Positions 1,615 to 28,006 of a stretch of DNA of 64,000 bases are shown piece by piece (position 1 is the stretch's first letter; each line of letters begins with the position of its first letter). The stretch spans positions 13,970 to 77,969 of the forward strand of contig JAJYCD010000002.1 of the NCBI GenBank assembly GCA_021778635.1, in the 5' to 3' direction. The stretch comes from Actinomycetes bacterium (GTDB taxonomy: Bacteria > Actinomycetota > Actinomycetes > Actinomycetales > Cellulomonadaceae). The notes beneath the pieces were generated by a model. The model searched no databases. It worked only from the letters and a program-made list of their open reading frames with translations, and had not been told where the DNA came from. The position numbers were made by a program, and so were the translations under genes.

Positions 1615-1628
<14 letters not shown>
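702..1628 (+). CDS. atpC: A/V-type ATPase subunit C (d/AC39-like)
   Basis: 308 aa from a GTG start. Length, helical composition and operon position match the C/d subunit. Its stop overlaps the start of subunit I. Confidence 0.65.
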
Positions 1629-3367
<1,739 letters not shown>

Positions 3368-3368
<1 letters not shown>

Positions 3369-12615: not shown

Positions 12616-13127
12616 CCCGCCTCCACGGCCTGGACGTCGACGCCGTCGTCCAGGTCCAAGGGCGCCTGTCCGGGGCCGGCTTCCTGCAAGGCGCGCGCCT
12701 CCTCAGCGCCTTCGGCGAGCACGCCTGGGGATGGACGGCGATCTGCCTGGCGGGCGCCGCTGTCGACCGGGAACGACGGGGGGACTGGCTGCGCGCCACG
12801 GCCGCGGTGGTCGGTGCCCACGGCGTGAGCATCGCGCTCAAGCGGCTCGTGCGCCGCCACCGCCCGGACGACGAGCGGGTCCGCGTCCACGGCACGACGT
12901 CGAGCGACTGGAGCTTCCCGTCGTCCCATGCGGCATCGACCACGGCTGCCGCGGTCGCCTGCTCGCGTCTTCTCGGGCGCCGCTGGCCCTGGGCGGTCGT
13001 GCCCGCGATGATGGTGAGCCGGGTTGCCCTCGGCGTCCACTACCCGGGTGACGTCGCGGCCGGTGGGGTCATCGGCGCGGTCCTCGGTCGTTGGCTCGTC
13101 CCCGCGCGAGTCGATCCCCTCGCGTGA
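12612..13127 (+). CDS. PAP2 phosphatase, probable decaprenylphosphoryl-5-phosphoribose phosphatase (Rv3807c-like)
   Basis: 171 aa with an ATGA overlap with the upstream gene. It has the PAP2 signature KRLVRRHRP ... PSSH ... SRVALGVHYPGDV and lies immediately upstream of the UbiA-type DPPR synthase. Confidence 0.8.
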   Translation: MTRLHGLDVDAVVQVQGRLSGAGFLQGARLLSAFGEHAWGWTAICLAGAAVDRERRGDWLRATAAVVGAHGVSIALKRLVRRHRPDDERVRVHGTTSSDWSFPSSHAASTTAAAVACSRLLGRRWPWAVVPAMMVSRVALGVHYPGDVAAGGVIGAVLGRWLVPARVDPLA

Positions 13128-13990
13128 GGCGCGCGCGGATCCTGCTCCGGGCCTGCCGGCCCCGGCAGTGGACGAAGAACGTCCTGGTGCTGACCGCGCC
13201 TGTCGTCGGTGGGGTCGCGCTCGACCCACGGGCTCTCGTGGCGATGTTCGGTGCGGTGGCGGCGTTCTCGCTCGCGGCATCCGGTATCTACCTGGTCAAC
13301 GACGCCATCGACGTCGAGGTCGACCGCACCCATCCGTCGAAGCGCAGGCGCCCGATCGCCTCCGGAGCACTGTCGATCCGCGCCGCGTGGACGGCCGCAG
13401 CGGTACTGCTGCCCGCCGCCATCGCCATATCCGCGCTGCTCGGATGGCAGCTCGTGGTCGTGGTCGCGGTCTACGAAGCGGTGCAGCTCTGGTACTGCCT
13501 CGGGATGAAGCACGAGCCGGTCGTCGAGCTCGTCAGCGTCGCCTCCGGCTTCCTGCTGCGCGCGATCGCCGGCGGCGTCGCGACCCACGTCGCTCTCTCG
13601 CAGTGGTTCCTCATCGCTGCGGGCTTCGGGTCACTGTTCATGGCGGGCGGGAAGCGGTACGCGGAGATGCGCTCGAGCGAGACGACGGGCGAACCAGGAC
13701 GACCGGTGCTCGCCCGCTACACGTCGTCGTACCTCCGGTTCGTGTGGACGCTGTCGGCCGGGGTGCTCGTGACCACGTACGCGCTGTGGGCATTCGCGAT
13801 CCAGGATGCGACGGCCAACGAGTGGAGTGTCATCTCGATCGTGCCCTTCGTGATGGCACTGCTGAGGTATGCCGTCGACGTCGACAGCGGCGCCGCCGGC
13901 GAGCCGGAGGAGGTCGTCCTCCACGACCGGGTGCTCCTGGCGCTCGGTGCCGCGTGGGCCGCGTGCCTGATCGGCTCGGTGTACGTCTAG
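13124..13990 (+). CDS. decaprenyl-phosphate phosphoribosyltransferase (UbiA family, Rv3806c-like)
   Basis: 288 aa from GTG 13124 (GTGA overlap; alternative start at 13091). Motifs: RPRQWTKNVLV and the Asp-rich NDAIDVEVDRTHPSKRRRPIASG. The protein is polytopic. Confidence 0.85.
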   Translation: MRRARILLRACRPRQWTKNVLVLTAPVVGGVALDPRALVAMFGAVAAFSLAASGIYLVNDAIDVEVDRTHPSKRRRPIASGALSIRAAWTAAAVLLPAAIAISALLGWQLVVVVAVYEAVQLWYCLGMKHEPVVELVSVASGFLLRAIAGGVATHVALSQWFLIAAGFGSLFMAGGKRYAEMRSSETTGEPGRPVLARYTSSYLRFVWTLSAGVLVTTYALWAFAIQDATANEWSVISIVPFVMALLRYAVDVDSGAAGEPEEVVLHDRVLLALGAAWAACLIGSVYV

Positions 13991-17736: not shown

Positions 17737-18937
17737 GCGCGACCGCGGCGCCTCGTGTCTCCGGCATGGCCACGGTCGTGGCAACCGCGAGCACCGAGAC
17801 GGCAGCGGTCGCGAGGAAGGCCACCTCGAAGGACGCCGCGTCCACGAGGGCGCCGGCCACGAGTGGGCCGATGAACGCGCCCGCGTCCGAGGCCATCTGG
17901 AAGGCCGCGACCGGTGCACCGCCGCGACCATGGATGACGTCACCGACGACGGCCGAGGTGGACACGCCCAGCAGCGCCGATCCTGCTCCGTACAGGGCCA
18001 TGGCGAGGAGGAACTGCGGTGCGCCACCGGCTAGCGCCATGGTGACGGCAGCGAGCAGCGCGATCGCCGCCCCCGCGCGCAGGTAGGGTCGGCGTCCGCG
18101 CGTGTCGACCACGCGGCCGACCGGGACGAGCGCCAGCGCCTGCACCACCGCGGAGACGACGAGGCCGGCGCCCGTCCACGACGCCCCCAGCCGAAGACCC
18201 TCGACGACGAACAGCGGCACCAGCGAGGAGCGGACGCCGACGACTCCCCAGCCGACGGCGAAGTTGTTCACGACCGCAGCCCGGTAGGCGGAGCTGCGCA
18301 GAGCGGCGCCCAACGGGGTGGGAGGACGGTCCGCGCTACCGGCTGCCACCTCGTGCGCACGCAGCGACGTCCGTGCCAGGAACACGGTCGCCACGGTGCC
18401 GGCCACCAGCAGCGTGACGGCGTACACGAAGAACGGTGCGCGCAGCGACCATGCGGTCAACGGGCCACCGAACGCCGGTCCGGCGATCCCCCCGAGAAGA
18501 AACCCTGTCTGGTACGTCCCCGTCGCTCGACCGCGCTGCTCCGGCGCCACCACCCTGAGCAGGAGCGCGAACGAGGACACGGTGAACATCGCCGAGCCGA
18601 ACCCGCCGATGCCTCGCAGGACGAGGAGCTGCACATAGCTCCCGGAGAGCCCGGCCAACAGGCTCGAGATGCCGACGATCCCGATCCCGGCTGCGAGCAC
18701 GATGCGCTCCCCCAGCCGATTGACCATCCGCCCCGCCACTGGCGCGGAGACGAACCGCACGAGCGCGAAGACCGAGATGACCGCGCTGGCCGCGAAGTTG
18801 GTGACGCCGAAGTCCTTCGCGAACAACGGGATCGCCGGCGCCACGATGCCGAAGCCGAGGGCGACGGAGAAGGCCACGGCCGTGAGGACCGCGACCTCGG
18901 GCGGGAGAGATCGGAACGGGCTGCGTAGGTGGCGCAT
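17705..18937 (-). CDS. MFS transporter
   Basis: 410 aa with about 12 TM segments. It has the MFS loop motif GRMVNRLGERIV. Its 3' end overlaps the convergent gene by 32 nt. Confidence 0.85.
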   Translation of the reverse strand: MRHLRSPFRSLPPEVAVLTAVAFSVALGFGIVAPAIPLFAKDFGVTNFAASAVISVFALVRFVSAPVAGRMVNRLGERIVLAAGIGIVGISSLLAGLSGSYVQLLVLRGIGGFGSAMFTVSSFALLLRVVAPEQRGRATGTYQTGFLLGGIAGPAFGGPLTAWSLRAPFFVYAVTLLVAGTVATVFLARTSLRAHEVAAGSADRPPTPLGAALRSSAYRAAVVNNFAVGWGVVGVRSSLVPLFVVEGLRLGASWTGAGLVVSAVVQALALVPVGRVVDTRGRRPYLRAGAAIALLAAVTMALAGGAPQFLLAMALYGAGSALLGVSTSAVVGDVIHGRGGAPVAAFQMASDAGAFIGPLVAGALVDAASFEVAFLATAAVSVLAVATTVAMPETRGAAVALTGTTGSGSR

Positions 18938-19001
18938 ACGATCGTCTATCTTTCCAGATCAGCAGGGATGCGCGGGCAACTCGGTACCCTCGGGCCTGGA
19001 C

Positions 19002-19709
19002 GTGCGCCCGGCCGCTCCACCCCGCTCGTCGACCCTCCGGAGGTTCACCGTGGTCCTCTTCCTGACCGTTCTCAGCGGGGTCGCGTGGACCGTCGTCTAC
19101 GTCGACGCGATCAGGGTCGGCCTGCGCGCCCGGACGTACGCCATGCCGGTGGCCGCTCTCGCGCTCAACATCGCCTGGGAGGCGATCTACGCGGTCCACG
19201 GTGTGGCGACGGATCTGTCGGCGCAGGCAGTCATCAACGTGGTCTGGACGGTGGCCGACGTCATGATCGTCACCACGTTCCTCCGCTTCGGACGACGCGA
19301 GCTACCCGAGTTCGTCTCGCGCGCGATGTTCCTCGCCTGGGCTTCCGGGATGCTGCTGACCGCGTTCGTGGTGCAGGCGCTGTTCATCGGTGAGTTCGGC
19401 TGGGACAACGGCTCCGGCTACGCCGCATTTCTCCAGAACCTGCTCATGTCTGGTCTGTTCATCGCCATGTTCGTCGGGCGGCGCGGGGCACGCGGCCAGA
19501 CCCTCGTCATCGCGATCGGGAAGTGGATCGGCACACTCGCGCCGACGATCGCCTTCGGCGCGCTCGGTCACAGCGTGTTCGTCCTCGGCGTCGGCCTGCT
19601 GTGCAGCATGTTCGACATCGCGTACATCGGCCTGCTGCTGTGGGCACGGGCCGCGCCAACAGCGCTCATCGAGCACGCGTCGGCCGAGCAGGCGCCGACC
19701 GCGGCCTGA
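19002..19709 (+). CDS. polytopic membrane protein of unknown function (possible Pyr4/PaxB-like transmembrane cyclase fold)
   Basis: About 235 aa from GTG 19002, with 6-7 hydrophobic segments and the motif RARTYAMPVAALALNIAWEAIYA. The upstream part of the track ORF (from 18669) is antisense to the MFS gene. Confidence 0.55.
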   Translation: MRPAAPPRSSTLRRFTVVLFLTVLSGVAWTVVYVDAIRVGLRARTYAMPVAALALNIAWEAIYAVHGVATDLSAQAVINVVWTVADVMIVTTFLRFGRRELPEFVSRAMFLAWASGMLLTAFVVQALFIGEFGWDNGSGYAAFLQNLLMSGLFIAMFVGRRGARGQTLVIAIGKWIGTLAPTIAFGALGHSVFVLGVGLLCSMFDIAYIGLLLWARAAPTALIEHASAEQAPTAA

Positions 19710-19719
19710 GCGACGACGC

Positions 19720-19754
19720 GCGTCGGCCCCCGCGGTGGGAGCGGGGGCCGACGC
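19720..19754. terminator. bidirectional intrinsic-terminator-like hairpin between convergent genes
   Basis: A 14-bp perfect GC-rich stem (gcgtcggcccccgc / gcgggggccgacgc) with the 7-nt loop ggtggga. It lies 11 nt after the 19709 stop and 27 nt after the 19781 stop. There is no U-tract. Confidence 0.55.
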
Positions 19755-19780
19755 ACGAACGATCGGGGCGAGCGCAGGTC

Positions 19781-22645
19781 TCAGAAGCCGTGCGCCACCC
19801 TGCTGCGCTGCTCCTGAGTCTTGAAGAGCCGGAACCGCGGCAGGAACTTGTCCCAGTCGATCAGGTGGGAGTCGATCTCCGGACCGTCGATGCACGCGTG
19901 CTTGCGGATCAGCTTGCCGTCGATGACCACCGGAACCATGCACGCTCCGCACATCCCGGTGGCGTCGACCATGATCGAGTTCAGACTGGCGACGCAGGGG
20001 ACGCCGTACGGTTTCGTCAGGTCGCTCACCGCTCGCATCATGAGCGGTGGGCCGATCGTGATGACCTCGGCGACGGTTCTGCCCTCGCCACGCTTGTTCG
20101 CCTCGAGTAGCTCTTCCAGCGGACCGGTCACGAACCCCGGGACGCCGAACGAACCGTCGTTCGTGGTGTAGATGATCTCGAGCTGGTCGCCGTACTGCGA
20201 CTCGATCCGGCCGACCCGCTCGTCCTCACCGGTCCAGAACATCAGGTCGCCGCTGCGGAACCCCGCGATCAGGGTGACGTGGTTCCCGGTCTCGAGATGT
20301 TTGCGCATGATCGGGAACACCGGTGGGAGCCCGAGGCCGCCCGCGGTGAACACCACCGTCGAGTCGTCCGGATACCGGTGCACGTCGCTAGGACGCCCGA
20401 GCGGCCCGGCGATCCCGGTGAAGGAGTCACCCGCGACCATCTGGTTGATCTCGAAGCTGCTGGTCCCCATCCCCTGGACCACGAGGCAGATGGTGCCGGC
20501 CTCCGCGTCCCAGTCGGCGAGCGTGAGCGGGATCAGCTCGCCGTCCGGCCGCGGGAGGACCCGGACGAACTGTCCCGCCTGAGCGGCCTGGGAGATGACC
20601 GGCGAGTGCACCGTGAACTCGTGGATGCCGTCGCTGAGCTCCGAGGTTGCGACGACGCGCTGCGCCGTGGACGCCGTGTCGGTGTAGGCCTTGGCGCTGG
20701 CCACCATCGCCGCGATCGTCGACGGGTCGACGTCGATGTTCCCGACGATCTCCCGTGCCGCGGCCTGGCCGTCGCCGGCGGCACGGATCGCCGTCGAACC
20801 TCCGCGAGCCGCGTCCCCCCCGGTGAACACCCCGGCCAGCGTCGTCTCCTGCGAGCCCTGCTCGCTGAGCTCGATCGTGCCCCACTTCGAGGTGTGCAGC
20901 CGTGGCTCCGAGTCCTTGATGATGGGGTTGGCGTCGTTGCCGAGAGCCATGATCACCAGGTCGGCGAGCATGGTCTCGGTCTTCCCGGTGGCCGCGGGTC
21001 GGCGTCGCCCGGACTCGTCCGGCTCACCGAGCTCCATCACGTCCAGGGTCGTGGCGGTGACGAATCCCGTCTCGAGGTCCCCGAGGAACTCCGACGGACC
21101 GCGCAGCACCTTGAGGTGGATCCCCTCCTCGAGTGCGTGGTGCAGCTCCTCGACGCGCGCGGGCATCTCCGCCTGGGTGCGCCGATAGACGATCGTCACG
21201 TCACCCCCGAGTCGTCGGGCCGTCCGGGCCGCGTCCATCGCGGTGTTGCCACCACCGATGACGATGACCTGCTTGCCTTCGGTGTCCGGCAGCGGGGTCT
21301 CGTAGTCGGCACGCAACCCCTGCATGAGGTTGACGCGCGTGAGGAACTCGTTGGCCGACATCACGTTGAGCAGGTGTTCCCCCGGCACGTTCATGAACCG
21401 GGGAAGACCGGCACCGGATCCGACGAAGATCCGCCAGAAGCCCGCGTCGCGCAGGTCCTGGAGCGATGCTGTCTTGCCGACGACGAAGTTCGAGACGAAC
21501 CGGCCACCGAGGAGCGTGATCTTGTTGACCACGTCGTCGATGAGGTCGTTCGGGAGCCGGAACTCCGGGATGCCGTATCGCAGCACCCCGCCGAGGGCGT
21601 GGAACGCTTCGAAGACCGTCACCGGGAAGCCCTCGGCGGCAAGGAGGTACGCATTGATCAGGCCGGAGGGTCCCGAACCGACGATCGCCACCGGCGGGCG
21701 CTCCGCGCGATCCCACGGGTCGGGGATCTCCGCGAACCGTGCCGTGATCGAGTCAGGGTTGACCAGCTTCTCCCGCTGCGGAAGGAACCACTCGACCTGA
21801 CCGATCTGAATCGGGTTGTCCTTGTGCAGGCAGACGCCCTGGCACTGCAGCTCCTGCGGGCACACCCGGCCGGTGACGTCGGGCAACGGGTTGCTGCCCT
21901 CGATCAGCTCCAGCGCGTCCTGGAACCGACCGTTGCCGATCAGCTCGAGGATCTGCGGGATGTGGATCTTCACCGGGCAGCCGCCCTTGGGCTCGCGGTG
22001 GTTCGCGAGGAAGATCCCGAGCTCGCACGGCTTCTCGGCACACTGCTTGTCTCGCAGCGCCTCGAGCCAGACGAACAGGTCGATGTCCTCGCGGCTGTAG
22101 CCGAGCGACATGTAGCCGAGGTAGCCCTGGTTGACCAGACCGAAATCCTTCGAACGCGACTCGGCGTCACGCACGTAGGGCGGGATGCTGGTGCTAGCCG
22201 GCCACCCGTCCGACAGCCCGTCGAACATCGGGTAGCGGTCCGAGAGGTGCGCGTCGATCGCTCGGATGAACAGCCGCTTCTTGCCCAGCGGAAGGTTCCA
22301 CAGGAACCGCATGAGCACGGTGCTCGCGTCGTCGCCGCGTCGCAGCATGGACCACAGCACGCGGGTGAACTCCGGCCCGAGCTCGGGCTGGGTGAACTCC
22401 CACGCGACCGCCGACATGCCGTCGGAGATGAACAGCTCGCGGAACGTCTGCGGCTCGGCGAGGAGCCGACGCCGCAGGAGCTCCATCTGGCGGTTGTACT
22501 CGGCAACTCCGGAGGACTGCTCCAGCTCGGCGACCTCGGCGCTGCTGGACTGCAGCGCCGACGAGGCGTCGAGGTACCGGAGCAGATCGTCTCGACCCGA
22601 CTCGGTGGTCGACGTCGACCCGACGGGGGGCAGGATGTTCGTCAC
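19781..22645 (-). CDS. fusion oxidoreductase: unknown N-domain + GltD/NfnB-like (2x[4Fe-4S], FAD, NAD(P)H) + NfnA/PyrK-like (FAD/NAD(P), [2Fe-2S])
   Basis: 954 aa. The GTG at 22645 overlaps the PFOR stop (GTGA). Motifs: GCPVKIHIP, GRVCPQELQCQGVC, VAIVGSGPSGL and VIVIGGGNTAMD. The C-terminal third has FTAGGLGLPP and MVDATGMCGACMVPV...HACIDGP. Confidence 0.85.
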   Translation of the reverse strand: MTNILPPVGSTSTTESGRDDLLRYLDASSALQSSSAEVAELEQSSGVAEYNRQMELLRRRLLAEPQTFRELFISDGMSAVAWEFTQPELGPEFTRVLWSMLRRGDDASTVLMRFLWNLPLGKKRLFIRAIDAHLSDRYPMFDGLSDGWPASTSIPPYVRDAESRSKDFGLVNQGYLGYMSLGYSREDIDLFVWLEALRDKQCAEKPCELGIFLANHREPKGGCPVKIHIPQILELIGNGRFQDALELIEGSNPLPDVTGRVCPQELQCQGVCLHKDNPIQIGQVEWFLPQREKLVNPDSITARFAEIPDPWDRAERPPVAIVGSGPSGLINAYLLAAEGFPVTVFEAFHALGGVLRYGIPEFRLPNDLIDDVVNKITLLGGRFVSNFVVGKTASLQDLRDAGFWRIFVGSGAGLPRFMNVPGEHLLNVMSANEFLTRVNLMQGLRADYETPLPDTEGKQVIVIGGGNTAMDAARTARRLGGDVTIVYRRTQAEMPARVEELHHALEEGIHLKVLRGPSEFLGDLETGFVTATTLDVMELGEPDESGRRRPAATGKTETMLADLVIMALGNDANPIIKDSEPRLHTSKWGTIELSEQGSQETTLAGVFTGGDAARGGSTAIRAAGDGQAAAREIVGNIDVDPSTIAAMVASAKAYTDTASTAQRVVATSELSDGIHEFTVHSPVISQAAQAGQFVRVLPRPDGELIPLTLADWDAEAGTICLVVQGMGTSSFEINQMVAGDSFTGIAGPLGRPSDVHRYPDDSTVVFTAGGLGLPPVFPIMRKHLETGNHVTLIAGFRSGDLMFWTGEDERVGRIESQYGDQLEIIYTTNDGSFGVPGFVTGPLEELLEANKRGEGRTVAEVITIGPPLMMRAVSDLTKPYGVPCVASLNSIMVDATGMCGACMVPVVIDGKLIRKHACIDGPEIDSHLIDWDKFLPRFRLFKTQEQRSRVAHGF

Positions 22646-25600
22646 TGGATGATCTCCGCGTCGCAGGTGGCCTTGACCCGTGCGATCCGAGCCGACAGCT
22701 CAGGAGTGATCTCGACCTTCTCCAGAGCGCCCGGGATCATCCTGGCGACGACCGTGGCCTTGCCGTCGATGATCGTCGTGGTCTTCTCGAACAGCTGGGG
22801 CAGCTCCTGGTAGCACGTGCCGCAATCGGTGCACCTGGTCTGGTCGGCCGGATCGAGCCACACCGCTCGATCCGCCACCGCGACGGCGGAGGACTGCGGT
22901 TCCGCGGCCACCGCCGTGCCGTTCGACCCTGCGATCCCGACCGACACCCGGGTACCGAGCCCGGCAGGCGCCCGACTCGAGGTCGCCAGCTCGGACATCG
23001 CCCTCGCGATGTCGTCGAGCGAGCTCTCCTTGGCCCGCGTTGCTGCGTCGTACTTCGCCTGCAGCTCCGCGATGTCGTCCCGGTGCAGCGCCGTCAGCGT
23101 GGCTTCGTGGCCGCCGGACAGGTACTGCAGGATCTCCCAGTGCCGCATCCGGTCCTCGACCAGCGCGACCACCTGGTGCGAGCAGGCCACCTTGATCAGG
23201 CGCCGGTCGTCGTCGGTCGCGTACACGAACGGGATCTTGTCCGTCCGGGCCGCGACGTCCAGGGAGACGTACTCGTCGATCGGCAGTGCCGTCGCTTCCT
23301 GCGCCGGTGTCAGGCGTCGGAACTGCTTCTTGAACCGGGTCTCGCCGAGCGCGAACTCCGCAGGGGTGAGCGGCGTGGTCATCAGCTGCACCTGACCGGA
23401 CTCGTCCAGGTACTCCAGCGTGCTCGTCGTCCACCGCTTGTCCGGGTCGGGGTTGCCCTCGAGCGAGAACCAGTCGTGCAACGTCGTCCCGCGCCTCGGG
23501 TCGTGCACGAACAGCGGACTCATGCGCGACTCGACCGAGAGCCGCGACCGTGCGGCCGAGGCCGCCTCCGCGATGCCGTTCTCCGAACCGCACGGCGTGT
23601 ACACGTCCATCAGGGCGGGCGCGCCGTCGTAGCTCAGGTAGTCCATGGTGCACTTGAGGAAGTGACCGTGCATCGCGGTGCTCGTCTGCGCCACGTAGAC
23701 GTTCGGGTGGAACGACGCCAGCAGACCGAGCTCCTTGCGGAACTCGTGCTTGCCGTCATGCGCTCCGCCGAACCGTGAGAGGTCGGAGTCCTGACCCGTG
23801 AAGCTCGCGGTCGACGCCTGGCCGCCGGTGTTGGAGTACGCACCGGAGTTGAGCACCATCACCTTGATCGGGGTCTCGCTCGCCAGCACCCGGCTCATCG
23901 CGCCGAAGCCGATGTCGTAGCTCGCACCGTCACCGCCGATCGTGAGGATGGTCGGCATCAGAGCGAGCTCGTCGTGGGTCATCCGCTCCCACGTCAGCCG
24001 CTGCATCGCCTTGTCGTGACGGGCGGGGTCATAGGCGTCGTCCAGCTCGAGACGCGCGGTCCGCATGTTCCGCACCTCCCCGACGAGCTCGGCCGCGACG
24101 CCTTCGAAGATGCCCTTCGCCAGCGGTTGAGCGTCCTGGAACAGGCTGTTGACCCATGGGTCGACGTAGTTGTTGAACGGCATCGTCGACGCGTACACGC
24201 TCGAGCACCCGGTGGAGTTCGCCACGATCATCGGCGCGGGGCCGTCGCCCGTGGGTCCGCTCTCCACCAGGTACAGCCGGCGCTCGAGAGCGTCGAGCAC
24301 GGCCTGGACCCGTGCCTGCCGCTCCGGGTCGGCGGCCAGCGCGACCACCTTCTCCTGGAGGCGTCCGACGACGTCCTCCAGCTCGCGCAGGTGGGCGACC
24401 CTCTTCTCCTCGCCGAGGGCATGGCCCATGGACATCACGAGCCGGATCGCGGTGACCTCACCGCAGCCACGGCACGCGCCGTGCCCGCCGGTCGTCGCGT
24501 AGTAGTTGTCGTGGTCGAGCAGGAGTCGCTTGAGATCGCCCTCGGGAGAGGTCGATCCCTCGTAGAACCGCTTCGGGGTGTTCGGGAGCTGCGACAGCAG
24601 CTCGAACCGGTCCTGAAGGGTCTCGAGAACCGTGTCGTCCTGGTCCATCGGAGTCAGCGCACCGGGGCCGCAGACCTCGGTGCACTCGAGGCAGCCCGTG
24701 CACTTCCACGGGTCGATCGTCGCGGTGAAGAGTCCGCCGCTTCCCGGTACCGACTTCTCCATCGCGTCGAAGTAGGGCCGCGTCCGGGCGACGGGGAAGG
24801 CGGCCAGAGCCTCGACGAGAGCACCGAGGCTCCGGGTGAAGACAGGGCTCTCCACCGACAACCCGGCACCGACCTGCGCCACCAGGTCGTGGAACGCCAC
24901 CTCCGACTTCTCGGCACGGTAGCGCTCGCGGACGCCCTCGGAGAGTGGGTAGACCTGTGCGCGCAGTGCGGCGCGCTGCGCCTCCGGCAGCTCGAGCCGG
25001 TCGATCGTCGTGAGCAGCAGGGCGTGCAGGTCGTGCACCGTGTTCGGGATCGCAGCGTCCGGGCAGACCAGAGCGCACTCGAGACAACCGGTGCACAGGT
25101 CCGCGTTGAAGCTCGGCACGGTGCGACGGAACAGACCCTTGTCCTTGCCACCCGCAGATCCGGGAGGCATGAACAGACCGATCCCCGGCATGACCGGAGC
25201 GTCGCCGATCGTCCCCTCGCGGAACGGCCGCGCCACGATGTCCTCGTAGTAGCCCGGGTCGAAGAGCCCGCTCGCACTTCCGGCACTCGCGCTCACACAC
25301 ATGTCCCCTGACACCGAGACCGGCAGGGTCCTGCGCAGCTGGACGCTCGAGGCGTCGATCGCCACCAGCTCGGGGTCGTCGTAGTCGACCTTCGTGACGG
25401 CCTCGATGCCCTCGCGGATGACCGCCATGTTGCCCTCGACGACGGCCTCGCCCTTGCTTCCGAACTTCTTGACGATCTGCGTGCGGACCTTCTCGAGGAT
25501 GACGTCCCGGTCGGCGCCCTTCGACACCCGGTCGACATGGCCGGCGACCACGCCGATGAACGCGATGCCCATCATCCGCGTCTCGAGCTCGGGCTTCGGC

Positions 25601-27639
25601 GCGTGCTTCTTCGCCACGCTGAAGGCGTCGACGACGAGGAAGCGGATATGGCGCTCACGGATGGCAGTGCGCGCGTACTTCGGAAGCTGACGCCACACGT
25701 CGGCGGCCGGCAGGTCAGACTGGAGGATCAGCGTGCCTCCCTCGACCAGTCCCTTGAGCGGGTTGGTGTGCACGAACGCCTTGTGATCGGGGCAGAGCAC
25801 GACCTCGACGTCCTCGAGTTCGGCGTTGGTGATGAGCACCGGCTCAGGACTCAGGGTGATGTAGTAGTTCGTCGGCGCGCCGCTCTTCTCCGAGCCGTAC
25901 TTCGGCGCGGACTTGGAGTGCATACCGAGCACACCGGCGAGGATGTCGGTAAGCAGCTTGCCGGTCGCGATGGTGCCGTAACCGCCGACCGAGTGGAACC
26001 GGATCCGCATGGCGCTCTCGGGGAGCAGCTGGGGGTTCGGCTTCGTCTCGAGGGCCATGTGCGCGGTGTCGGGGTACGCGGCTCGCAGCCGATCCTCGAT
26101 CTCCGCCATCTGCGGCGTCGGGTGCTTGCTGAAGAACTGGGAGCCGAGGTAGATCAGCGGTGCGCTCTTGCCGTCGATCATGTGCTCGAACGCCGCGATC
26201 AGGTCGCGCGGCTGCACGTCGTGGCCGCCGAGGCCGAAGATCGCGGTGGTGAGCAGCGGCATGGCGCTCAGCGGCGGAACGGCGTGCGCGGCGCCGTCCG
26301 CGTTGGCGCGCGCCTTGAACAGTGCGGTGGTCACGAAGGTCGTGAGCGACGTCTGGTCGGACCGCTCCAGCACGGTCACGGCCTTCTTGCCCGCCAGGGC
26401 CGCGACGAGCTCGGCCTCCGGGAACGGCTGCAGGAGCTTCACCGACACCACGCCGACCTTGTGCCCCTGCGCACGCAGGTACGGCACCACGGCGCGGACG
26501 TCGTCCGTGATCGAGCCGAGGCCGACCATGACGTAGTCGGCGTCCTCGATGTCGTAGGTGTGCAGCGGGCTGTACTCGCGACCCGTCAGCTCGCTGTACT
26601 CGGCCATCGCCTGACGCGCGAGCCTCGGCACCTCGCTCGCGAAGTGGGTCCGGTGGTCGACCGCGCCGGCCTGGAAGTCGGGCTGGTTCTGCACGGGTCC
26701 GGTCAGACCGGGGTTGTGCACGTCCACCAGGGCCGGGACCATCTGCCGGGTGCCCTTGGCAGGGGCGTTCACCCACTGGCGACGCCAGGGCGCGTGCAGC
26801 TCGACCGGAAGCCATGCGAGAGTCTCGCCCACCAGCGCGGCGGCCTCGTCGGCCTCGATCGCGTCGGCGTTCGCGCGGAGGAAGGTCGTCACGGCCTCAC
26901 GAGCGGCCTCGACGAGGTCGTCCTTGTGGCGGTCGAGGTAGGCGCTGAGCTGCGCGACGCGTCCCTTGGCGCCGAACAGCACCTCCTGCGCAACCGTCGG
27001 AGCCGGGATCCGACCGGCAGGGTCACCCAGATACGTGCGCAGCAGATCCGCCTCGGGAAGCAGCATCTCGCTGAGCATGTGGCTCGTGGAGAACCCGTCC
27101 ATCGCGTTGGTGACCGGGATCAGCGACAACGCGGACGTGCGGTAGGAGATCGCCGCGAGGTCGGCCGCCTCCTGCGGGTTGGACCCGAAGAACACGGTGT
27201 ACCCCGACGGCAGCAGGGCGTAGACGTCGTCGTGCCCGGCCATCACGTTGAGTGAGTGCTTGGACACCACGCGGGCGGCGACCTGGAGGACGAAACCACC
27301 GATCTTCTTGCCGACCGTCACGAAGTGCGACTCGAGCGCGTACAGGATCCCCTGGCTCGACGAGGCGTTCGAGACGAACTGCCCGCCGGTCAGAGCTGCG
27401 CCGAGCGCGCCGCTCTGCGCGGAGTGCTCACCCTCGGCCTCGAAGAAGAACGGGTGCTTGCCCCAGACGTTGACGCTTCCCTCGGCCCGTGCGGCCTCGA
27501 AGAGCTCGGAGATCTCCGTGGACGGTGTGATCGGGTACCCGATCACGCCCCCGCACACGTGTCGCATGACATGAGCCACAGCGCCATTGCCGTTGATGAC
27601 GGCGGGAACGCCGGGGAACCGCGGTTGCTGAGAGGTCAT
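22642..27639 (-). CDS. giant pyruvate/2-oxoacid:ferredoxin oxidoreductase (PFOR/NifJ family) with a C-terminal ferredoxin-like extension
   Basis: 1665 aa. Motifs: GYPITPSTEISE (domain I), GGYGTIATGKLL (gamma domain), CTGCLECALVCPDAAIP plus CTGCLECTEVCGPGAL (2x[4Fe-4S]), CRGCGE, and the TPP motif GGDGASYDIGFGAMS...NSGAYSNTGGQ. An extra tail ends CTDCGTCYQELP...ATCDAEIIQ. Confidence 0.9.
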   Translation of the reverse strand: MTSQQPRFPGVPAVINGNGAVAHVMRHVCGGVIGYPITPSTEISELFEAARAEGSVNVWGKHPFFFEAEGEHSAQSGALGAALTGGQFVSNASSSQGILYALESHFVTVGKKIGGFVLQVAARVVSKHSLNVMAGHDDVYALLPSGYTVFFGSNPQEAADLAAISYRTSALSLIPVTNAMDGFSTSHMLSEMLLPEADLLRTYLGDPAGRIPAPTVAQEVLFGAKGRVAQLSAYLDRHKDDLVEAAREAVTTFLRANADAIEADEAAALVGETLAWLPVELHAPWRRQWVNAPAKGTRQMVPALVDVHNPGLTGPVQNQPDFQAGAVDHRTHFASEVPRLARQAMAEYSELTGREYSPLHTYDIEDADYVMVGLGSITDDVRAVVPYLRAQGHKVGVVSVKLLQPFPEAELVAALAGKKAVTVLERSDQTSLTTFVTTALFKARANADGAAHAVPPLSAMPLLTTAIFGLGGHDVQPRDLIAAFEHMIDGKSAPLIYLGSQFFSKHPTPQMAEIEDRLRAAYPDTAHMALETKPNPQLLPESAMRIRFHSVGGYGTIATGKLLTDILAGVLGMHSKSAPKYGSEKSGAPTNYYITLSPEPVLITNAELEDVEVVLCPDHKAFVHTNPLKGLVEGGTLILQSDLPAADVWRQLPKYARTAIRERHIRFLVVDAFSVAKKHAPKPELETRMMGIAFIGVVAGHVDRVSKGADRDVILEKVRTQIVKKFGSKGEAVVEGNMAVIREGIEAVTKVDYDDPELVAIDASSVQLRRTLPVSVSGDMCVSASAGSASGLFDPGYYEDIVARPFREGTIGDAPVMPGIGLFMPPGSAGGKDKGLFRRTVPSFNADLCTGCLECALVCPDAAIPNTVHDLHALLLTTIDRLELPEAQRAALRAQVYPLSEGVRERYRAEKSEVAFHDLVAQVGAGLSVESPVFTRSLGALVEALAAFPVARTRPYFDAMEKSVPGSGGLFTATIDPWKCTGCLECTEVCGPGALTPMDQDDTVLETLQDRFELLSQLPNTPKRFYEGSTSPEGDLKRLLLDHDNYYATTGGHGACRGCGEVTAIRLVMSMGHALGEEKRVAHLRELEDVVGRLQEKVVALAADPERQARVQAVLDALERRLYLVESGPTGDGPAPMIVANSTGCSSVYASTMPFNNYVDPWVNSLFQDAQPLAKGIFEGVAAELVGEVRNMRTARLELDDAYDPARHDKAMQRLTWERMTHDELALMPTILTIGGDGASYDIGFGAMSRVLASETPIKVMVLNSGAYSNTGGQASTASFTGQDSDLSRFGGAHDGKHEFRKELGLLASFHPNVYVAQTSTAMHGHFLKCTMDYLSYDGAPALMDVYTPCGSENGIAEAASAARSRLSVESRMSPLFVHDPRRGTTLHDWFSLEGNPDPDKRWTTSTLEYLDESGQVQLMTTPLTPAEFALGETRFKKQFRRLTPAQEATALPIDEYVSLDVAARTDKIPFVYATDDDRRLIKVACSHQVVALVEDRMRHWEILQYLSGGHEATLTALHRDDIAELQAKYDAATRAKESSLDDIARAMSELATSSRAPAGLGTRVSVGIAGSNGTAVAAEPQSSAVAVADRAVWLDPADQTRCTDCGTCYQELPQLFEKTTTIIDGKATVVARMIPGALEKVEITPELSARIARVKATCDAEIIQ

Positions 27640-28006
27640 CGTGCCTGTCCCGAGGTGTGAGCGAATACCGGTCGACGGCAGAGGGTCAGCGGTGACCCGT
27701 CGCGGCGGCGGTGGCCGTCGTGGCGGTGGAGGTGCTTCAACGCGAACCCCAGGCCTTGTCCCGCCAGGCTAGGTCCGTATTTGACACTGCATCTGGGACC
27801 TATCGGCCCCCCTCGGCATGGTTTCGGATCACTCCTGACGGAACTGGTGCCGGGCCGTCGGCGTGTCCCGACGTCCTCGGTCGATGCCGTGTGCGCTCGG
27901 CGCCGACCGCCCGGTTCGCGCCGCGAGAGGCGGCGATCCGCCGCCCAGATCGGCGGCCCGCGCGTCTACCCTCGAGAGCCCGCGCGAGAGGACCGGAGAC
28001 AGACAA

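What the first reader, a model, noticed from the sequence alone, without database searches (positions are those of the whole stretch)
19781..27639. Translationally coupled giant PFOR-ferredoxin fusion and NfnB-NfnA fusion: candidate self-contained 2-oxoacid:NAD(P)+ oxidoreductase module
Two very large redox genes share a GTGA stop/start overlap at 22642-22645, which indicates co-translation. The first is a 1665-aa PFOR-family enzyme. By my recollection that is roughly 430 aa longer than canonical about 1.2-kDa-residue PFORs. It carries all the core motifs: domain I, gamma, two [4Fe-4S] motifs, CRGCGE and the TPP GDG motif. It also has internal insertions and an extra C-terminal domain ending in a single-cluster ferredoxin pattern (CTDCGTCYQELP ... 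ATCDAEIIQ). The second is a single 954-aa polypeptide that fuses a GltD/NfnB-like module to an NfnA/PyrK-like module. In characterised Nfn/Sud systems these are two separate subunits encoded in the opposite order. Taken together, the pair encodes a complete electron path: 2-oxoacid to TPP, to Fe-S clusters, to a tethered ferredoxin, to flavins, to pyridine nucleotide. That would be a bacterial analogue of the eukaryotic pyruvate:NADP+ oxidoreductase built from different parts, or possibly a bifurcating or reversible pyruvate synthase module. The substrate specificity is unknown.
Basis: partly seen in the sequence, partly recalled or inferred. Interest (0 to 1): 0.7.

Follow-up and report, generated by a model that had tools for sequence, protein, structure and literature searches.

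The report
Pyruvate oxidoreductase wired to Nfn flavoprotein
A Cellulomonas-type bacterium carries a two-gene cassette, kept together in at least 128 sampled genome and metagenome loci from two bacterial phyla, that pairs an oversized pyruvate:ferredoxin oxidoreductase carrying its own tethered ferredoxin with a single-chain Nfn-type flavoprotein; this probably lets pyruvate oxidation feed NAD(P)H directly, but nobody has tested it.

Summary
ORF 22642-27639(-) encodes a 1665-aa PFOR with all core cofactor motifs, four family-specific insertions, a disordered linker of about 44 residues and a terminal single-cluster ferredoxin domain. ORF 19781-22645(-) encodes a 954-aa NfnB-then-NfnA fusion and overlaps the first gene by GTGA.

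The new result is comparative:
- Anchored on the Nfn-like gene, 49 of 52 genome loci with upstream DNA have the long PFOR directly upstream.
- Anchored on the PFOR, 79 of 80 metagenome loci have the Nfn-like gene directly downstream, and 74 of those 79 show the RTGA overlap.
- The pair occurs in Actinomycetota, Alpha-, Beta- and Gammaproteobacteria and Magnetococcales, with no conserved third gene.

The Nfn fusion is already in the literature as the uncharacterised "Pattern C" (NCBIfam PRK12779). I found no description or characterisation of its obligate pairing with this ferredoxin-tailed PFOR.

Best reading: a self-contained pyruvate:NAD(P)+ oxidoreductase, possibly Nfn-type confurcating and reversible. 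The function is inferred and has not been shown. I rate it a new variant of known kinds, with interest about 0.65.

The parts
22642..27639 (-). Long PFOR gene (1665 aa), a single-chain 2-oxoacid:acceptor oxidoreductase
   Evidence: ORF found and translated. Pfam and NCBIfam hits. PDB matches to 6cin (E 5.9e-78) and 1b0p (E 7e-66). At least 120 homologues at 68-100% identity with near-constant length.
27040..27549 (-). PFOR domain I (POR_N, residues 31-200), including the substrate-pocket residues T38, R123 and V132
   Evidence: Pfam E 2e-33. The alignment to D. africanus 1b0p equates T31, R114 and I123 with T38, R123 and V132. All three are invariant in 41 sequences.
26725..27027 (-). Family-specific insertion 1 (about residues 205-305), between domains I and II
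   Evidence: Query residues 192-308 correspond to residues 181-209 of 6cin. Conservation across the family is 0.55-0.76.
26341..26541 (-). PFOR domain II (residues 367-433)
   Evidence: Pfam PFOR_II, E 1.5e-15.
25402..25986 (-). PFOR domain III (gamma / CoA-binding; residues 552-746)
   Evidence: Pfam POR, E 1.1e-27, covering the full profile length 1-173.
24661..25119 (-). Domain V, the 2x[4Fe-4S] ferredoxin domain (residues 841-993), split by a helical insertion of about 110 aa (865-975)
   Evidence: Fer4 hits at 841-864 and 969-993. Cys 849, 852, 855, 859, 980, 983, 986 and 990 are invariant in 41 of 41 sequences. Residues 871-946 are helical in the AF2 model.
23479..24492 (-). Domain VI (residues 1050-1387): TPP binding, the proximal [4Fe-4S] cluster, and a helical-hairpin insertion at 1060-1123
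   Evidence: The GDG...YSNTGGQ motif aligns to 6cin and 1b0p, and N1270 corresponds to Da Asn996. Cys 1056, 1059, 1145 and 1350 are invariant. Long helices appear in the AF2 model.
23002..23472 (-). C-terminal extension (residues 1390-1546): a beta-rich subdomain followed by helices, absent from solved PFORs
   Evidence: The end of 6cin corresponds to about query residue 1447. In the AF2 model residues 1404-1486 have pLDDT 80-90. No Pfam hit.
22870..23001 (-). Flexible Ala/Ser/Gly-rich tether (residues 1547-1590)
   Evidence: This is the lowest-conservation stretch of the protein: 0.33, with 14% gaps. AF2 pLDDT is about 25-48.
22645..22845 (-). Tethered single-cluster [4Fe-4S] ferredoxin domain (residues 1599-1665; C1603-x2-C1606-x2-C1609 ... 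C1659)
   Evidence: Pfam Fer4_15, 38 bits against a cut-off of 22.4. The four Cys are kept in 39-41 of 41 sequences. 116 of 120 homologues keep the motif, and the four exceptions are truncated or frameshifted. AF2 pLDDT is 70-81.
22642..22657 (-). Translational-coupling junction: GGAG (22654-22657), an 8-nt spacer, then the GTG start (22643-22645) overlapping the TGA stop (22642-22644)
   Evidence: Sequence read. The same NTGA in-frame overlap occurs in 74 of 79 metagenome loci and 35 of 52 genome loci.
19781..22645 (-). Fused Nfn-like gene (954 aa; order NfnB-like then NfnA-like; "Pattern C")
   Evidence: NCBIfam NF009415/PRK12779 scores 1706 bits against a cut-off of 1519, over the full length. 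PDB matches to NfnI L and S and to T. maritima NfnAB. Fold search agrees.
22076..22597 (-). N-terminal all-helical domain of the Nfn-like protein (about residues 17-190), specific to this family; candidate PFOR-docking domain
   Evidence: No Pfam or PDB sequence hit. Helices 17-134 have pLDDT 70-90. Many residues are invariant, including W98, W116, K123, R124, Y138, P139, W148 and P149. The 19 non-fused Bacillota loci align only from about residue 110-180 onward (most from 152-179) and have no long PFOR within the flanks fetched.
21776..22042 (-). NfnB-type 2x[4Fe-4S] domain (residues 202-290)
   Evidence: Pfam Fer4_20, E 6.6e-19. C202, C207, C223, C262, C268, C272 and E285 are invariant, and E208 is kept in 44 of 45 sequences.
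20747..21691 (-). NfnB-type FAD and NADPH-binding domains (residues 319-633)
   Evidence: Pfam Pyr_redox_2, E 1.1e-23. The alignment to NfnI-L includes GGGNTAMDAAR and YRR.
19802..20662 (-). NfnA/PyrK-type FAD, NAD(H) and [2Fe-2S] module (residues 662-948; ligands D894, C899, C902, C918)
   Evidence: NfnI-S match, E 5.5e-66. DHODB_Fe-S_bind, E 2e-10. The four ligands are invariant in 45 of 45 sequences. Foldseek TM-score to 5jca_S is 0.86.

Best explanation
The two genes form one self-contained enzyme system.

**Proposed electron path.**
1. The long PFOR oxidatively decarboxylates pyruvate with CoA at its TPP site.
2. It passes the electrons one at a time through its three canonical [4Fe-4S] clusters.
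3. It hands them to its own C-terminal [4Fe-4S] ferredoxin domain, which swings on a disordered tether of about 44 residues.
4. That domain delivers them to the co-translated, dedicated Nfn-type flavoprotein. There they enter the two NfnB-type [4Fe-4S] clusters and reach the NfnB-type FAD, which reduces NADP+.
5. The NfnA-type FAD/[2Fe-2S] module links the same flavin to NAD(H).

**Net reaction.** This is a ferredoxin-pool-independent pyruvate:NAD(P)+ oxidoreductase. Most probably it has Nfn stoichiometry: pyruvate + CoA + NADH + 2 NADP+ -> acetyl-CoA + CO2 + NAD+ + 2 NADPH. It would be reversible in principle.

**Shown:** gene structure, cofactor motifs, the tether, strict co-occurrence and translational coupling.

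**Inferred:** physical complex formation, the role of the helical N-terminal domain of the Nfn-like protein and of the PFOR insertions as a docking surface, pyruvate as the substrate, the pyridine nucleotides used, and the stoichiometry.
For: 1. **Intact cofactor sets.** In the PFOR, 12 Cys for three clusters, the GDG...NTGGQ TPP motif and the pyruvate-pocket residues T38, R123, V132 and N1270 are all invariant. In the Nfn-like protein, the ligand residues C202, C207, E208, C223, C262, C268, C272, E285, D894, C899, C902 and C918 are invariant or nearly so in 45 sequences.
2. **A tethered extra ferredoxin.** Fer4_15 scores above threshold. The linker is the least conserved and least ordered stretch of the protein, while the ferredoxin domain is conserved and confidently folded. 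The motif is present in 116 of 120 homologues, and the four exceptions are truncated or frameshifted.
3. **Reciprocal co-occurrence.** Anchored on the Nfn-like gene, 49 of 52 genome loci with upstream DNA have the full-length long PFOR immediately upstream on the same strand. Anchored on the PFOR, 79 of 80 metagenome loci have the Nfn-like gene immediately downstream; the remaining contig ends 3 nt after the PFOR match, which is itself cut at residue 1560.
4. **Conserved coupling.** The 4-nt overlap is kept in 74 of 79 and 35 of 52 loci.
5. **No conserved third gene.** None recurs in the flanks of about 130 loci. In the window the pair is bounded by a divergent gene and a convergent gene.
6. 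**The cassette moves as a unit.** It occurs in Actinomycetota, Alpha-, Beta- and Gammaproteobacteria and Magnetococcales at 55-83% identity. Pairwise identities of the two proteins correlate at r = 0.90.
7. **The family-specific N-terminal domain goes with the PFOR partner.** It is present where the long PFOR is present. The non-fused Bacillota relatives lack it and have no long PFOR within the flanks fetched.
8. **A reusable NAD(P) module.** The same fused module is attached to a different dehydrogenase set in Devosiaceae, which fits a generic output or input module for NAD(P).
Against: - There is no biochemical, genetic or expression evidence at all. Nine literature searches found no characterisation of either protein type.
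- No true fusion of the two proteins was found. The one apparent 2587-aa fusion, P0098, is a frameshift artefact.
- I could not model complex formation. The AF2 monomer models are only moderate (pLDDT 69 and 62).
- The first Cys motif of the NfnB-type domain has one Cys fewer than P. furiosus NfnI (C-x4-C-x15-CP against C-x2-C-x6-C-x3-CP). The properties of the entry cluster are therefore uncertain.
- The PFOR scores far below the curated pyruvate:ferredoxin oxidoreductase equivalog cut-off (379 against 911 bits). Substrate identity rests on four pocket residues.
- Three Nfn-anchored loci (L051, L052, L055) lack an adjacent long PFOR.
- Anaplasmataceae are reported to encode a protein with the same NCBI name (PMC4251998). 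I did not examine it.
Confidence: 0.7

Rival explanations
1. Same machinery, but run in the opposite physiological direction as a bifurcating pyruvate synthase. The Nfn-type module bifurcates electrons from 2 NADPH. One pair goes to NAD+. The other goes, at low potential and through the tethered ferredoxin, into the PFOR to carboxylate acetyl-CoA reductively. This would allow C2 or CO2 assimilation without a free reduced-ferredoxin pool.
For: - Canonical Nfn is described as a reversible bifurcating or confurcating enzyme (PMC6405883).
- PFORs of reductive organisms are reversible (PMC12337175).
- The cassette occurs in phototrophs and autotroph-like lineages where pyruvate synthesis is useful: Rhodopseudomonas, Rhodopila, Chromatiaceae and Magnetococcales.
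- A tether would keep the scarce low-potential electron from leaking away.
Against: - Most carriers are heterotrophic, fermentative or facultative Actinomycetota such as Cellulomonas, Actinotalea, Propionibacteriaceae, Varibaculum and Bifidobacteriaceae. By my general knowledge these oxidise pyruvate.
- No carbon-fixation genes are conserved next to the cassette.
- Direction cannot be read from sequence.
Confidence: 0.15
2. The coupling is simple and non-bifurcating. The Nfn-like protein acts only as a ferredoxin:NAD(P)+ reductase for the tethered ferredoxin, in the manner of Xfn/NfnII, SudAB or FNR. The net reaction is pyruvate + CoA + NAD(P)+ -> acetyl-CoA + CO2 + NAD(P)H. The second flavin module would serve as an alternative exit or be vestigial.
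For: - The query is about equally similar to the bifurcating NfnI (345 bits) and to the P. furiosus NfnI paralogue deposited as "Ferredoxin NADP Oxidoreductase (Xfn)" (331 bits).
- The altered Cys pattern of the first cluster could change the potentials.
- By my own estimate from standard potentials, direct pyruvate:NADP+ transfer is strongly exergonic and needs no coupling.
- Liang et al. stress that Nfn homologues may be bifurcating or not, and that function cannot be told from sequence.
Against: Both flavin modules and all Fe-S ligands, including the NfnA-type Asp+3Cys [2Fe-2S] site and its NAD-binding fold, are invariant across phyla. This argues that the NfnA half is under selection and in use.
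Confidence: 0.25
3. The genes are co-regulated neighbours without dedicated electron transfer. The PFOR reduces the cellular ferredoxin or flavodoxin pool as usual, with its tail domain serving stability or oxygen protection. The Nfn-like protein balances NADH, NADPH and ferredoxin independently.
For: - Canonical PFOR and NfnAB both work with free ferredoxin.
- D. africanus PFOR has a C-terminal domain VII. By my recollection it is linked to oxygen stability; the held literature only notes that it may hinder access to the distal cluster.
Against: - Near-absolute reciprocal adjacency, a conserved 4-nt overlap and transfer of the cassette between phyla are far tighter than is usual for merely co-regulated genes.
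- The tail is a complete ferredoxin on a disordered tether and does not look like a cap.
- Both proteins carry family-specific insertions or domains that are conserved only in this paired family.
Confidence: 0.08
4. The substrate is a 2-oxoacid other than pyruvate, for example 2-oxoglutarate, a branched-chain or aromatic 2-oxoacid, or oxalate.
For: - The PFOR falls well below the curated PFOR equivalog threshold (379 against 911 bits).
- It also hits VOR, phenylglyoxylate and oxalate oxidoreductase subunit models, far below their thresholds.
- NCBI names it only "2-oxoacid:acceptor oxidoreductase family protein".
Against: - The four residues I recall as lining the pyruvate site of D. africanus PFOR (Thr31, Arg114, Ile123, Asn996) are T38, R123, V132 and N1270 here, and are invariant in the family.
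- The best structural relatives are the two homodimeric pyruvate enzymes.
Confidence: 0.15

Closest known systems
Homodimeric single-chain PFOR (D. africanus 1B0P; M. thermoacetica 6CIN; NifJ / TIGR02176 type)
   Same: It shares the domain order I-II-III-V-VI in one chain, the TPP GDG...NTGGQ motif, twelve Cys for three [4Fe-4S] clusters and the pyruvate-pocket residues.
   Different: - It is 433-494 aa longer.
- It has four family-specific insertions: about 205-305, 865-975 inside the ferredoxin domain, a helical hairpin at 1060-1123, and 1390-1546.
- It adds a disordered tether and a fourth [4Fe-4S] cluster in a Fer4_15 ferredoxin domain.
- The EKR domain is not detected by Pfam.
- It scores only 379 bits against the TIGR02176 cut-off of 911.
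[quoted passage not shown]
   Same: Both modules are present at 41-42% identity. They include the FAD and NAD(P)-binding folds, the Asp+3Cys [2Fe-2S] site and the Glu-containing [4Fe-4S] site.
   Different: - It is one polypeptide in B-then-A order, whereas canonical systems have two subunits encoded A-then-B (PMC6405883).
- It has an extra conserved helical N-terminal domain of about 190 aa.
- One Cys of the first cluster motif is missing, and an invariant Glu208 sits next to Cys207.
- The electron partner is predicted to be a ferredoxin domain tethered to the PFOR instead of a free ferredoxin.
"Pattern C" fused Nfn homologues (Liang, Huang and Wang 2019, PMC6405883; representative Mobiluncus curtisii ADI67453) = NCBIfam NF009415 / PRK12779
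   Same: This is the family the 954-aa protein belongs to. Members are about 200 aa longer than other fused forms, carry the NfnA-type domains at the C-terminus, and occur in Actinobacteria, Alpha- and Gammaproteobacteria.
   Different: The papers treat it as an uncharacterised, early-branching Nfn. In the text I could read they do not connect it to a dedicated, ferredoxin-tailed PFOR. PFOR appears only in the abbreviation list of their Figure 2 legend.
Eukaryotic pyruvate:NADP+ oxidoreductase (PNO; Euglena, Cryptosporidium)
   Same: The concept is the same: a PFOR whose electrons go straight to NADP+ without a soluble ferredoxin. (This comparison rests on my general knowledge; the papers only mention PNO.)
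   Different: In PNO the PFOR is fused in one chain to an NADPH-cytochrome P450 reductase-type FMN/FAD domain. Here the acceptor is a separate Nfn-type two-flavin, three-Fe-S protein reached through a tethered ferredoxin. No flavodoxin or CPR domain is present.
NAD(P)-linked multi-subunit OFORs of Azoarcus/Thauera (phenylglyoxylate:NAD+ oxidoreductase PadEFGHI; 2-oxoglutarate:NADP+ oxidoreductase)
   Same: These are bacterial OFORs that carry an extra flavoprotein subunit and reduce NAD(P)+ directly. The PadE, PadG and PadI models give weak hits on the PFOR core, far below their cut-offs. The rest of this comparison comes from my memory of the literature.
   Different: They have a multi-subunit OFOR core, different substrates, a single flavoprotein subunit and no tethered ferredoxin. 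Membership was not tested here.
StnABC / NfnABC transhydrogenases (8OH5, 9BOV, 9N5U)
   Same: An NfnB/GltD-type module is recruited into a larger Fe-S or flavin assembly.
   Different: The partner modules differ (NuoF/HydB-like and molybdopterin-fold-like). There is no OFOR and no NfnA-type module fused at the C-terminus.

Membership tests
Single-chain PFOR (OFOR superfamily, NifJ type) | Domains I, II, III, V and VI in one polypeptide, in that order | tested here: met
   Pfam hits POR_N 31-200, PFOR_II 367-433, POR 552-746, Fer4 841-993 and TPP_enzyme_C 1230-1283. Collinear alignment to 6cin and 1b0p.
Single-chain PFOR (OFOR superfamily, NifJ type) | TPP/Mg binding motif GDG...NTGGQ | tested here: met
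   GGDGASYDIGFG ... NSGAYSNTGGQ aligns to the same motif in 6cin and 1b0p and is conserved in the family.
Single-chain PFOR (OFOR superfamily, NifJ type) | Twelve Cys ligating three [4Fe-4S] clusters | tested here: met
   Cys 849, 852, 855, 859, 980, 983, 986, 990, 1056, 1059, 1145 and 1350 are invariant in 41 of 41 sequences.
Single-chain PFOR (OFOR superfamily, NifJ type) | Pyruvate-pocket residues (Da Thr31, Arg114, Ile123, Asn996) | tested here: met
   They correspond to T38, R123, V132 (a conservative change) and N1270 and are invariant. Which residues line the pocket is my recollection of the D. africanus structure.
Single-chain PFOR (OFOR superfamily, NifJ type) | Score above the curated equivalog threshold (TIGR02176, 911 bits) | tested here: not met
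   The score is 379 bits in five stretches. This is a divergent subfamily, so I treat it as PFOR-like and not as a certified equivalog.
Single-chain PFOR (OFOR superfamily, NifJ type) | Pyruvate- and CoA-dependent acceptor reduction | not testable with these tools
   This requires an enzyme assay.
NfnAB (bifurcating ferredoxin:NADP+ oxidoreductase) | NfnB-type module: 2x[4Fe-4S], FAD and an NADPH domain | tested here: met
   Residues 193-633 match NfnI-L at E 7e-102. Fer4_20 and Pyr_redox_2 are both found.
NfnAB (bifurcating ferredoxin:NADP+ oxidoreductase) | Full canonical ligand set of the two NfnB [4Fe-4S] clusters (7 Cys + 1 Glu) | tested here: inconclusive
   Six Cys plus E285 are invariant. 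One Cys of the first motif is absent, and E208 (44 of 45) is a candidate substitute.
NfnAB (bifurcating ferredoxin:NADP+ oxidoreductase) | NfnA-type module with FAD, NAD(H) and an Asp+3Cys [2Fe-2S] site | tested here: met
   Residues 664-946 match NfnI-S at E 5.5e-66. D894, C899, C902 and C918 are invariant. TM-score to 5jca_S is 0.86.
NfnAB (bifurcating ferredoxin:NADP+ oxidoreductase) | Two subunits encoded nfnA-then-nfnB | tested here: not met
   It is a single 954-aa chain with the NfnB part first. The canonical order is taken from PMC6405883.
NfnAB (bifurcating ferredoxin:NADP+ oxidoreductase) | Electron bifurcation or confurcation between ferredoxin, NADH and NADPH | not testable with these tools
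   This requires biochemistry. The literature states that it cannot be inferred from sequence.
Pattern C fused Nfn / NCBIfam NF009415 (PRK12779) | Full-length match above the curated cut-off; B-then-A order; about 200 extra N-terminal residues | tested here: met
   1706 bits against 1519, with residues 12-954 aligning to profile positions 3-943 of 944. The description in PMC6405883 matches.
Eukaryotic PNO (PFOR-CPR fusion) | PFOR fused to an FMN/FAD NADPH-cytochrome P450 reductase domain | tested here: not met
   Neither protein has a flavodoxin or FAD_binding_1 domain. The resemblance is functional only, not membership.

The most novel reading that the evidence does not exclude
The cassette encodes a previously unrecognised class of flavin-based electron-confurcating or -bifurcating enzyme, a "PFOR-Nfn" supercomplex. 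The ferredoxin half-reaction of Nfn is hard-wired to pyruvate/acetyl-CoA + CO2 through a tethered ferredoxin domain. In the forward direction, pyruvate oxidation would drive NADH-to-NADPH transhydrogenation, giving 2 NADPH per pyruvate. In reverse, NADPH bifurcation would power pyruvate synthesis in facultative and even aerobic bacteria that keep no low-potential ferredoxin pool.
Probability: 0.3. Interest if true: 0.85.

Novelty: new variant of a known kind. Interest (0 to 1): 0.65.

Why it matters
- **Metabolic reconstruction.** Automated annotation currently calls the pair "2-oxoacid:acceptor oxidoreductase family protein" and "glutamate synthase small chain" or "sulfide/dihydroorotate dehydrogenase-like protein". 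If the pair works as inferred, the pyruvate-to-acetyl-CoA step would yield NAD(P)H and not reduced ferredoxin. That would change redox balances, H2 and fermentation predictions and NADPH budgets in many environmentally abundant lineages: Cellulomonadaceae, Dermatophilaceae/Tetrasphaera, Nanopelagicales, Propionibacteriaceae, Actinomycetaceae, purple bacteria, Vibrio and Photobacterium.
- **Electron bifurcation.** The "Pattern C" Nfn has been flagged as the earliest-branching Nfn lineage of unknown function. This work gives it a concrete, testable physiological partner. A defined two-protein system with a tethered ferredoxin would be convenient for structural and kinetic work.
- **Engineering.** A ferredoxin-independent, possibly reversible link between pyruvate and NAD(P)H that fits in 7.9 kb is attractive for engineering acetyl-CoA or CO2-fixation pathways.

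Tried and rejected
1. **P0098 as a natural fusion.** This 2587-aa hit carries both domain sets and looked like a Rosetta-stone fusion. I rejected it. The ferredoxin domain is replaced by an Arg/Gly/Pro-rich out-of-frame stretch that then reads into the next gene, so it is a frameshift or assembly artefact.
2. **A conserved third gene** (ferredoxin, regulator, pta/ack, maturation factor). All-against-all clustering of flank ORFs from about 130 loci found nothing recurring beyond a generic ABC ATPase in 12 loci.
3. **Promoter and terminator scan of 19400-28000.** It found no promoter-like sites, and two terminator-like sites on the non-coding (+) strand against 1.6 expected by chance.
4. **Nine literature searches** for any characterisation of the long PFOR, of Pattern C Nfn, or of a bacterial PFOR-Nfn or PNO-like system. 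They returned only the two survey papers that mention the Mobiluncus-type fused Nfn. The M. marinus PFOR studied in PMC12337175 is a normal three-cluster enzyme.
5. **AF2 monomer models.** They gave only moderate confidence (pLDDT 69 and 62). They were useful for the helical N-domain, the disordered tether and the folded ferredoxin domain, but not for geometry.
6. **Firmicutes relatives as fused homologues.** They turned out to be separate nfnB-like and nfnA-like genes, with the best ORF about 465 aa.
7. **Search of 50%-identity representatives.** The full-length family collapses to a single full-length representative (70% identity, 949 aa); the other hits above 50% identity are fragments, and the more distant full-length relatives have other architectures. 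That search alone did not show distribution.

Full report
**1. Observation**

The window has about 70% G+C. The exact PFOR sequence falls in a 90%-identity cluster whose named members come from Cellulomonas sp., Cellulomonas sp. P24, Cellulomonadaceae and a mine-drainage metagenome. The source is therefore a Cellulomonas-type actinobacterium.

Two minus-strand ORFs with strong third-position G+C bias (0.91 each) sit at 22642-27639 (1665 aa, ATG) and 19781-22645 (954 aa, GTG). The junction reads ...GAG ATC ATC CAG TGA with GTG-A overlapping. This confirms the GTGA overlap at 22642-22645. A GGAG lies 8 nt upstream of the GTG.

The pair is bounded upstream by a divergent DUF2079 membrane-protein gene, and downstream by a convergent Pyr4-like cyclase gene and an MFS transporter gene. 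In this window it is a stand-alone two-gene unit.

**2. Anatomy of the first protein**

Pfam finds the following:
- POR_N, residues 31-200.
- PFOR_II, residues 367-433.
- POR (gamma), residues 552-746.
- Two Fer4 motifs, at 841-864 and 969-993.
- A weak TPP_enzyme_C hit, residues 1230-1283.
- Fer4_15, a single-cluster ferredoxin domain, at the very C-terminus (1599-1665; 38 bits against a cut-off of 22.4).

The best solved relatives are the homodimeric PFORs of Moorella thermoacetica (6CIN, 1171 aa, E 5.9e-78) and Desulfovibrio africanus (1B0P, 1231 aa). The protein is thus 433-494 aa longer than the solved enzymes.

The collinear alignments place the surplus in four insertions: about 205-305, 865-975 (between the two cluster motifs of domain V), about 1060-1123 and about 1390-1546. 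A tail follows.

A family alignment of 41 full-length sequences from several phyla shows that all 12 Cys of the three canonical clusters are invariant. The four Cys of the extra ferredoxin domain (1603, 1606, 1609, 1659) are kept in 39-41 of 41 sequences.

I recall Thr31, Arg114, Ile123 and Asn996 as lining the pyruvate site of the D. africanus enzyme. They align with T38, R123, V132 and N1270, all invariant in the family. This favours pyruvate or a similarly small 2-oxoacid.

The curated PFOR equivalog model is nevertheless far from satisfied (379 against 911 bits). This is a divergent subfamily.

An AF2 model of residues 466-1665 is of moderate quality (pLDDT 62). It shows:
- the domain-V and domain-VI insertions as helices;
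- a confident beta-rich subdomain at 1404-1486;
- a disordered stretch at 1547-1590 (pLDDT about 25-48);
- a folded ferredoxin domain at 1591-1665 (pLDDT 70-81).

The disordered stretch is also the least conserved and most gap-prone part of the family alignment. The description "ferredoxin on a flexible tether" is therefore supported by three independent lines of evidence. Of 120 database homologues, 116 keep the terminal CxxCxxC motif, and the four exceptions are truncated or frameshifted.

**3. Anatomy of the second protein**

Residues 193-633 align with the large subunit of P. furiosus NfnI (E 7e-102) and with T. maritima NfnB. Residues 664-946 align with the small subunit NfnS/NfnA (E 5.5e-66). 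A fold search of the AF2 model returns the same structures.

Across 45 full-length family members the putative ligands are invariant or nearly so:
- NfnB-type clusters: C202, C207, C223, C262, C268, C272 and E285, plus E208 in 44 of 45.
- NfnA-type [2Fe-2S]: D894, C899, C902 and C918.

The first Cys motif is C-x4-C-x15-CP here, against C-x2-C-x6-C-x3-CP in NfnI. One Cys of the outer cluster is therefore missing, and E208 is a candidate replacement. This is an inference.

The first 190 residues or so have no Pfam or PDB relative. They are predicted all-helical with fair confidence and contain many invariant Trp, Arg, Tyr and Pro positions.

**4. What is already known**

Liang, Huang and Wang (2019, PMC6405883) classify exactly this architecture as "Pattern C" fused Nfn homologues. 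These occur in Actinobacteria, Alpha- and Gammaproteobacteria, are about 200 aa longer than other fused forms, and carry the NfnA-type domains at the C-terminus. The representative is Mobiluncus curtisii ADI67453. The authors list it among homologues that need study.

Poudel et al. (2018, PMC6085437) place that sequence as the earliest-branching Nfn lineage.

Neither text, as far as I could read it, links it to a special PFOR. PFOR appears only in the abbreviation list of a gene-arrangement figure legend.

Nine full-text searches found no characterisation of the long PFOR or of the pair. The Magnetococcus PFOR studied electrochemically in 2025 is a standard three-cluster enzyme.

**5. Comparative test of the pairing**

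*Anchored on the Nfn-like protein (genome collection).* The scan returned 60 loci of the full-length family. They come from:
- Actinomycetota: Cellulomonas, Actinotalea, Kineosporia, Kineosphaera, Dermatophilaceae, Propionibacteriaceae, Varibaculum, Bifidobacteriaceae, Beutenbergiaceae.
- Alphaproteobacteria: Rhodopseudomonas, Rhodopila, Tropicimonas, Roseiarcus, Xanthobacteraceae, Acetobacteraceae.
- Betaproteobacteria.
- Gammaproteobacteria: Photobacterium, Vibrio, Chromatiaceae.
- Magnetococcales.

A further 20 more distant loci were returned. Nineteen are Bacillota loci in which the nfnB-like and nfnA-like parts are separate genes; one is an archaeal locus (L069, not examined).

By tblastn, every full-length-family locus that includes upstream DNA has the long PFOR immediately upstream on the same strand, except three. 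Where the contig allows, the PFOR match covers residues 1-1665 including the ferredoxin tail. The exceptions are two Devosiaceae loci and a second copy in one Micrococcales MAG. That makes 49 of 52. None of the Bacillota loci has the long PFOR within the flanks fetched.

*Anchored on the PFOR (metagenome collection).* Of 80 loci, 79 carry the Nfn-like gene immediately downstream. The remaining contig ends 3 nt after the PFOR match, which is itself cut at residue 1560.

*Junction.* The in-frame NTGA stop/start overlap is present in 74 of 79 metagenome loci and 35 of 52 genome loci. Most of the rest have overlaps or gaps of up to about 50 nt; one locus (L026) has a gap of about 440 nt.

*Flanks.* No other gene recurs in the flanks.

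*Co-inheritance.* Pairwise identities of the two proteins across 37 genomes correlate at r = 0.90. Sequences from different phyla are still 55-70% identical.

The simplest reading is that the cassette is inherited, and transferred horizontally, as a unit. This is as strong as gene-neighbourhood evidence for a functional and probably physical partnership gets.

**6. Mechanism**

*Shown.* Both proteins have complete and conserved cofactor sites. The PFOR carries an additional ferredoxin domain on a disordered tether. The partner is a complete Nfn-type two-flavin, three-Fe-S protein with a family-specific helical N-domain. The genes are obligately adjacent and translationally coupled.

*Inferred.* The tethered ferredoxin replaces the free ferredoxin that canonical PFOR reduces and canonical Nfn oxidises, so electrons pass from pyruvate to pyridine nucleotide without a soluble carrier. 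The PFOR insertions and the Nfn N-domain form the docking surface.

If Nfn chemistry is retained, the net reaction is pyruvate + CoA + NADH + 2 NADP+ -> acetyl-CoA + CO2 + NAD+ + 2 NADPH. This lies close to equilibrium and is reversible. If it is not retained, the system is a simple pyruvate:NAD(P)+ oxidoreductase.

The invariance of the whole NfnA-type half argues that both nucleotide sites are used. The missing Cys in the entry cluster and the literature's warning that bifurcation cannot be read from sequence keep this open.

The Devosiaceae variant supports the view that the fused Nfn unit is a portable NAD(P) interface. There the same fused module carries an N-terminal DUF1667 domain and follows GlpA-like (DAO plus BFD) and Pyr_redox_2 genes.

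**7. Caveats**

- There are no experimental data.
- I could not do multimer modelling.
- The apparent natural fusion P0098 is a frameshift artefact.
- Anaplasmataceae are reported to encode a protein with the same NCBI name (ECH_0778; PMC4251998). I could not examine it. If it belongs to this family and has no OFOR partner, the pairing is not universal for the wider family.
- The literature corpus covers only open-access papers and bioRxiv.

**8. Verdict**

The parts belong to known families. The Nfn fusion was already catalogued as Pattern C/PRK12779 but is uncharacterised.

To my knowledge three things are undescribed: the ferredoxin-tailed long PFOR subfamily, its near-obligate translationally coupled pairing with Pattern C Nfn, and the spread of the cassette across phyla.

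I class it as a new variant of known kinds, with interest about 0.65. It would rank higher if the confurcating or bifurcating reading proves true.

Noticed in passing
window 1396-7998 (+): A V/A-type ATPase gene set lies in this actinobacterial window: V_ATPase_I-like, catalytic A and B subunits, and subunit D. By my recollection most Actinomycetota rely on F-type ATPases, so this may go with a fermentative lifestyle.
   Followed up: no
L051 6341-12595 (+); also L055: In Devosiaceae the same NfnB-then-NfnA fused module (66% identical over residues 89-952) carries an N-terminal DUF1667 domain, giving a 1206-aa ORF. It follows a GlpA-like DAO+BFD [2Fe-2S] gene and a Pyr_redox_2 gene, and no PFOR is nearby. 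This suggests the fused Nfn unit also serves another dehydrogenase, perhaps one of the glycerol-3-phosphate or opine type.
   Followed up: partly
protein P0098 (2587 aa; from a 253-kb contig): An apparent PFOR + Nfn-like single polypeptide in the database is a frameshift read-through. An Arg/Gly/Pro-rich out-of-frame stretch replaces the ferredoxin domain, after which translation continues into the next gene. P0102 has a similarly frameshifted tail.
   Followed up: yes
window 22030-22042 (-), Nfn-like residues 202-223: The first Fe-S motif of the NfnB-type domain has only C202 and C207 before the CP motif (C-x4-C-x15-CP), against C-x2-C-x6-C-x3-CP in P. furiosus NfnI. Glu208 is kept in 44 of 45 sequences (one has Gln). 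The electron-entry cluster may therefore have a non-Cys ligand or differ in type.
   Followed up: partly
L061-L068 and L070-L079: Nineteen Bacillota loci (Clostridia, Oscillospiraceae, Christensenellaceae) hold nfnB-like and nfnA-like genes as separate ORFs in B-then-A order, about 45% identical to the query. This is the reverse of the canonical nfnA-nfnB order. No long PFOR lies within the flanks fetched.
   Followed up: partly
L069 5315-14044: A Promethearchaeota (Asgard) MAG locus shows Nfn-like matches spread over about 9 kb, summing to 1147 bits. This may mean several tandem Nfn-like genes or one very large one.
   Followed up: no
window 13091-13990 (+) and 18669-19709 (+): A UbiA-family prenyltransferase gene and, 5 kb away, an ORF matching Pyr4-like transmembrane terpene cyclases (PF25129, E 1.8e-20). 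The latter ORF overlaps the end of the MFS transporter ORF by about 270 nt, so its true start is probably later. Possibly meroterpenoid or carotenoid-related chemistry.
   Followed up: no
literature: Ehrlichia chaffeensis ECH_0778 (PMC4251998): [quoted passage not shown] If it is an Nfn-type fusion like the one here, that functional assignment is doubtful, and it may be a PFOR-less member of the family.
   Followed up: no
protein P0245 (Austwickia chelonae WP_116114394.1, 847 aa): A divergent actinobacterial relative, 43% identical, that retains the family-specific N-terminal region (query residues 43-518 align) but is about 100 aa shorter overall. Its genomic partner is unknown.
   Followed up: no
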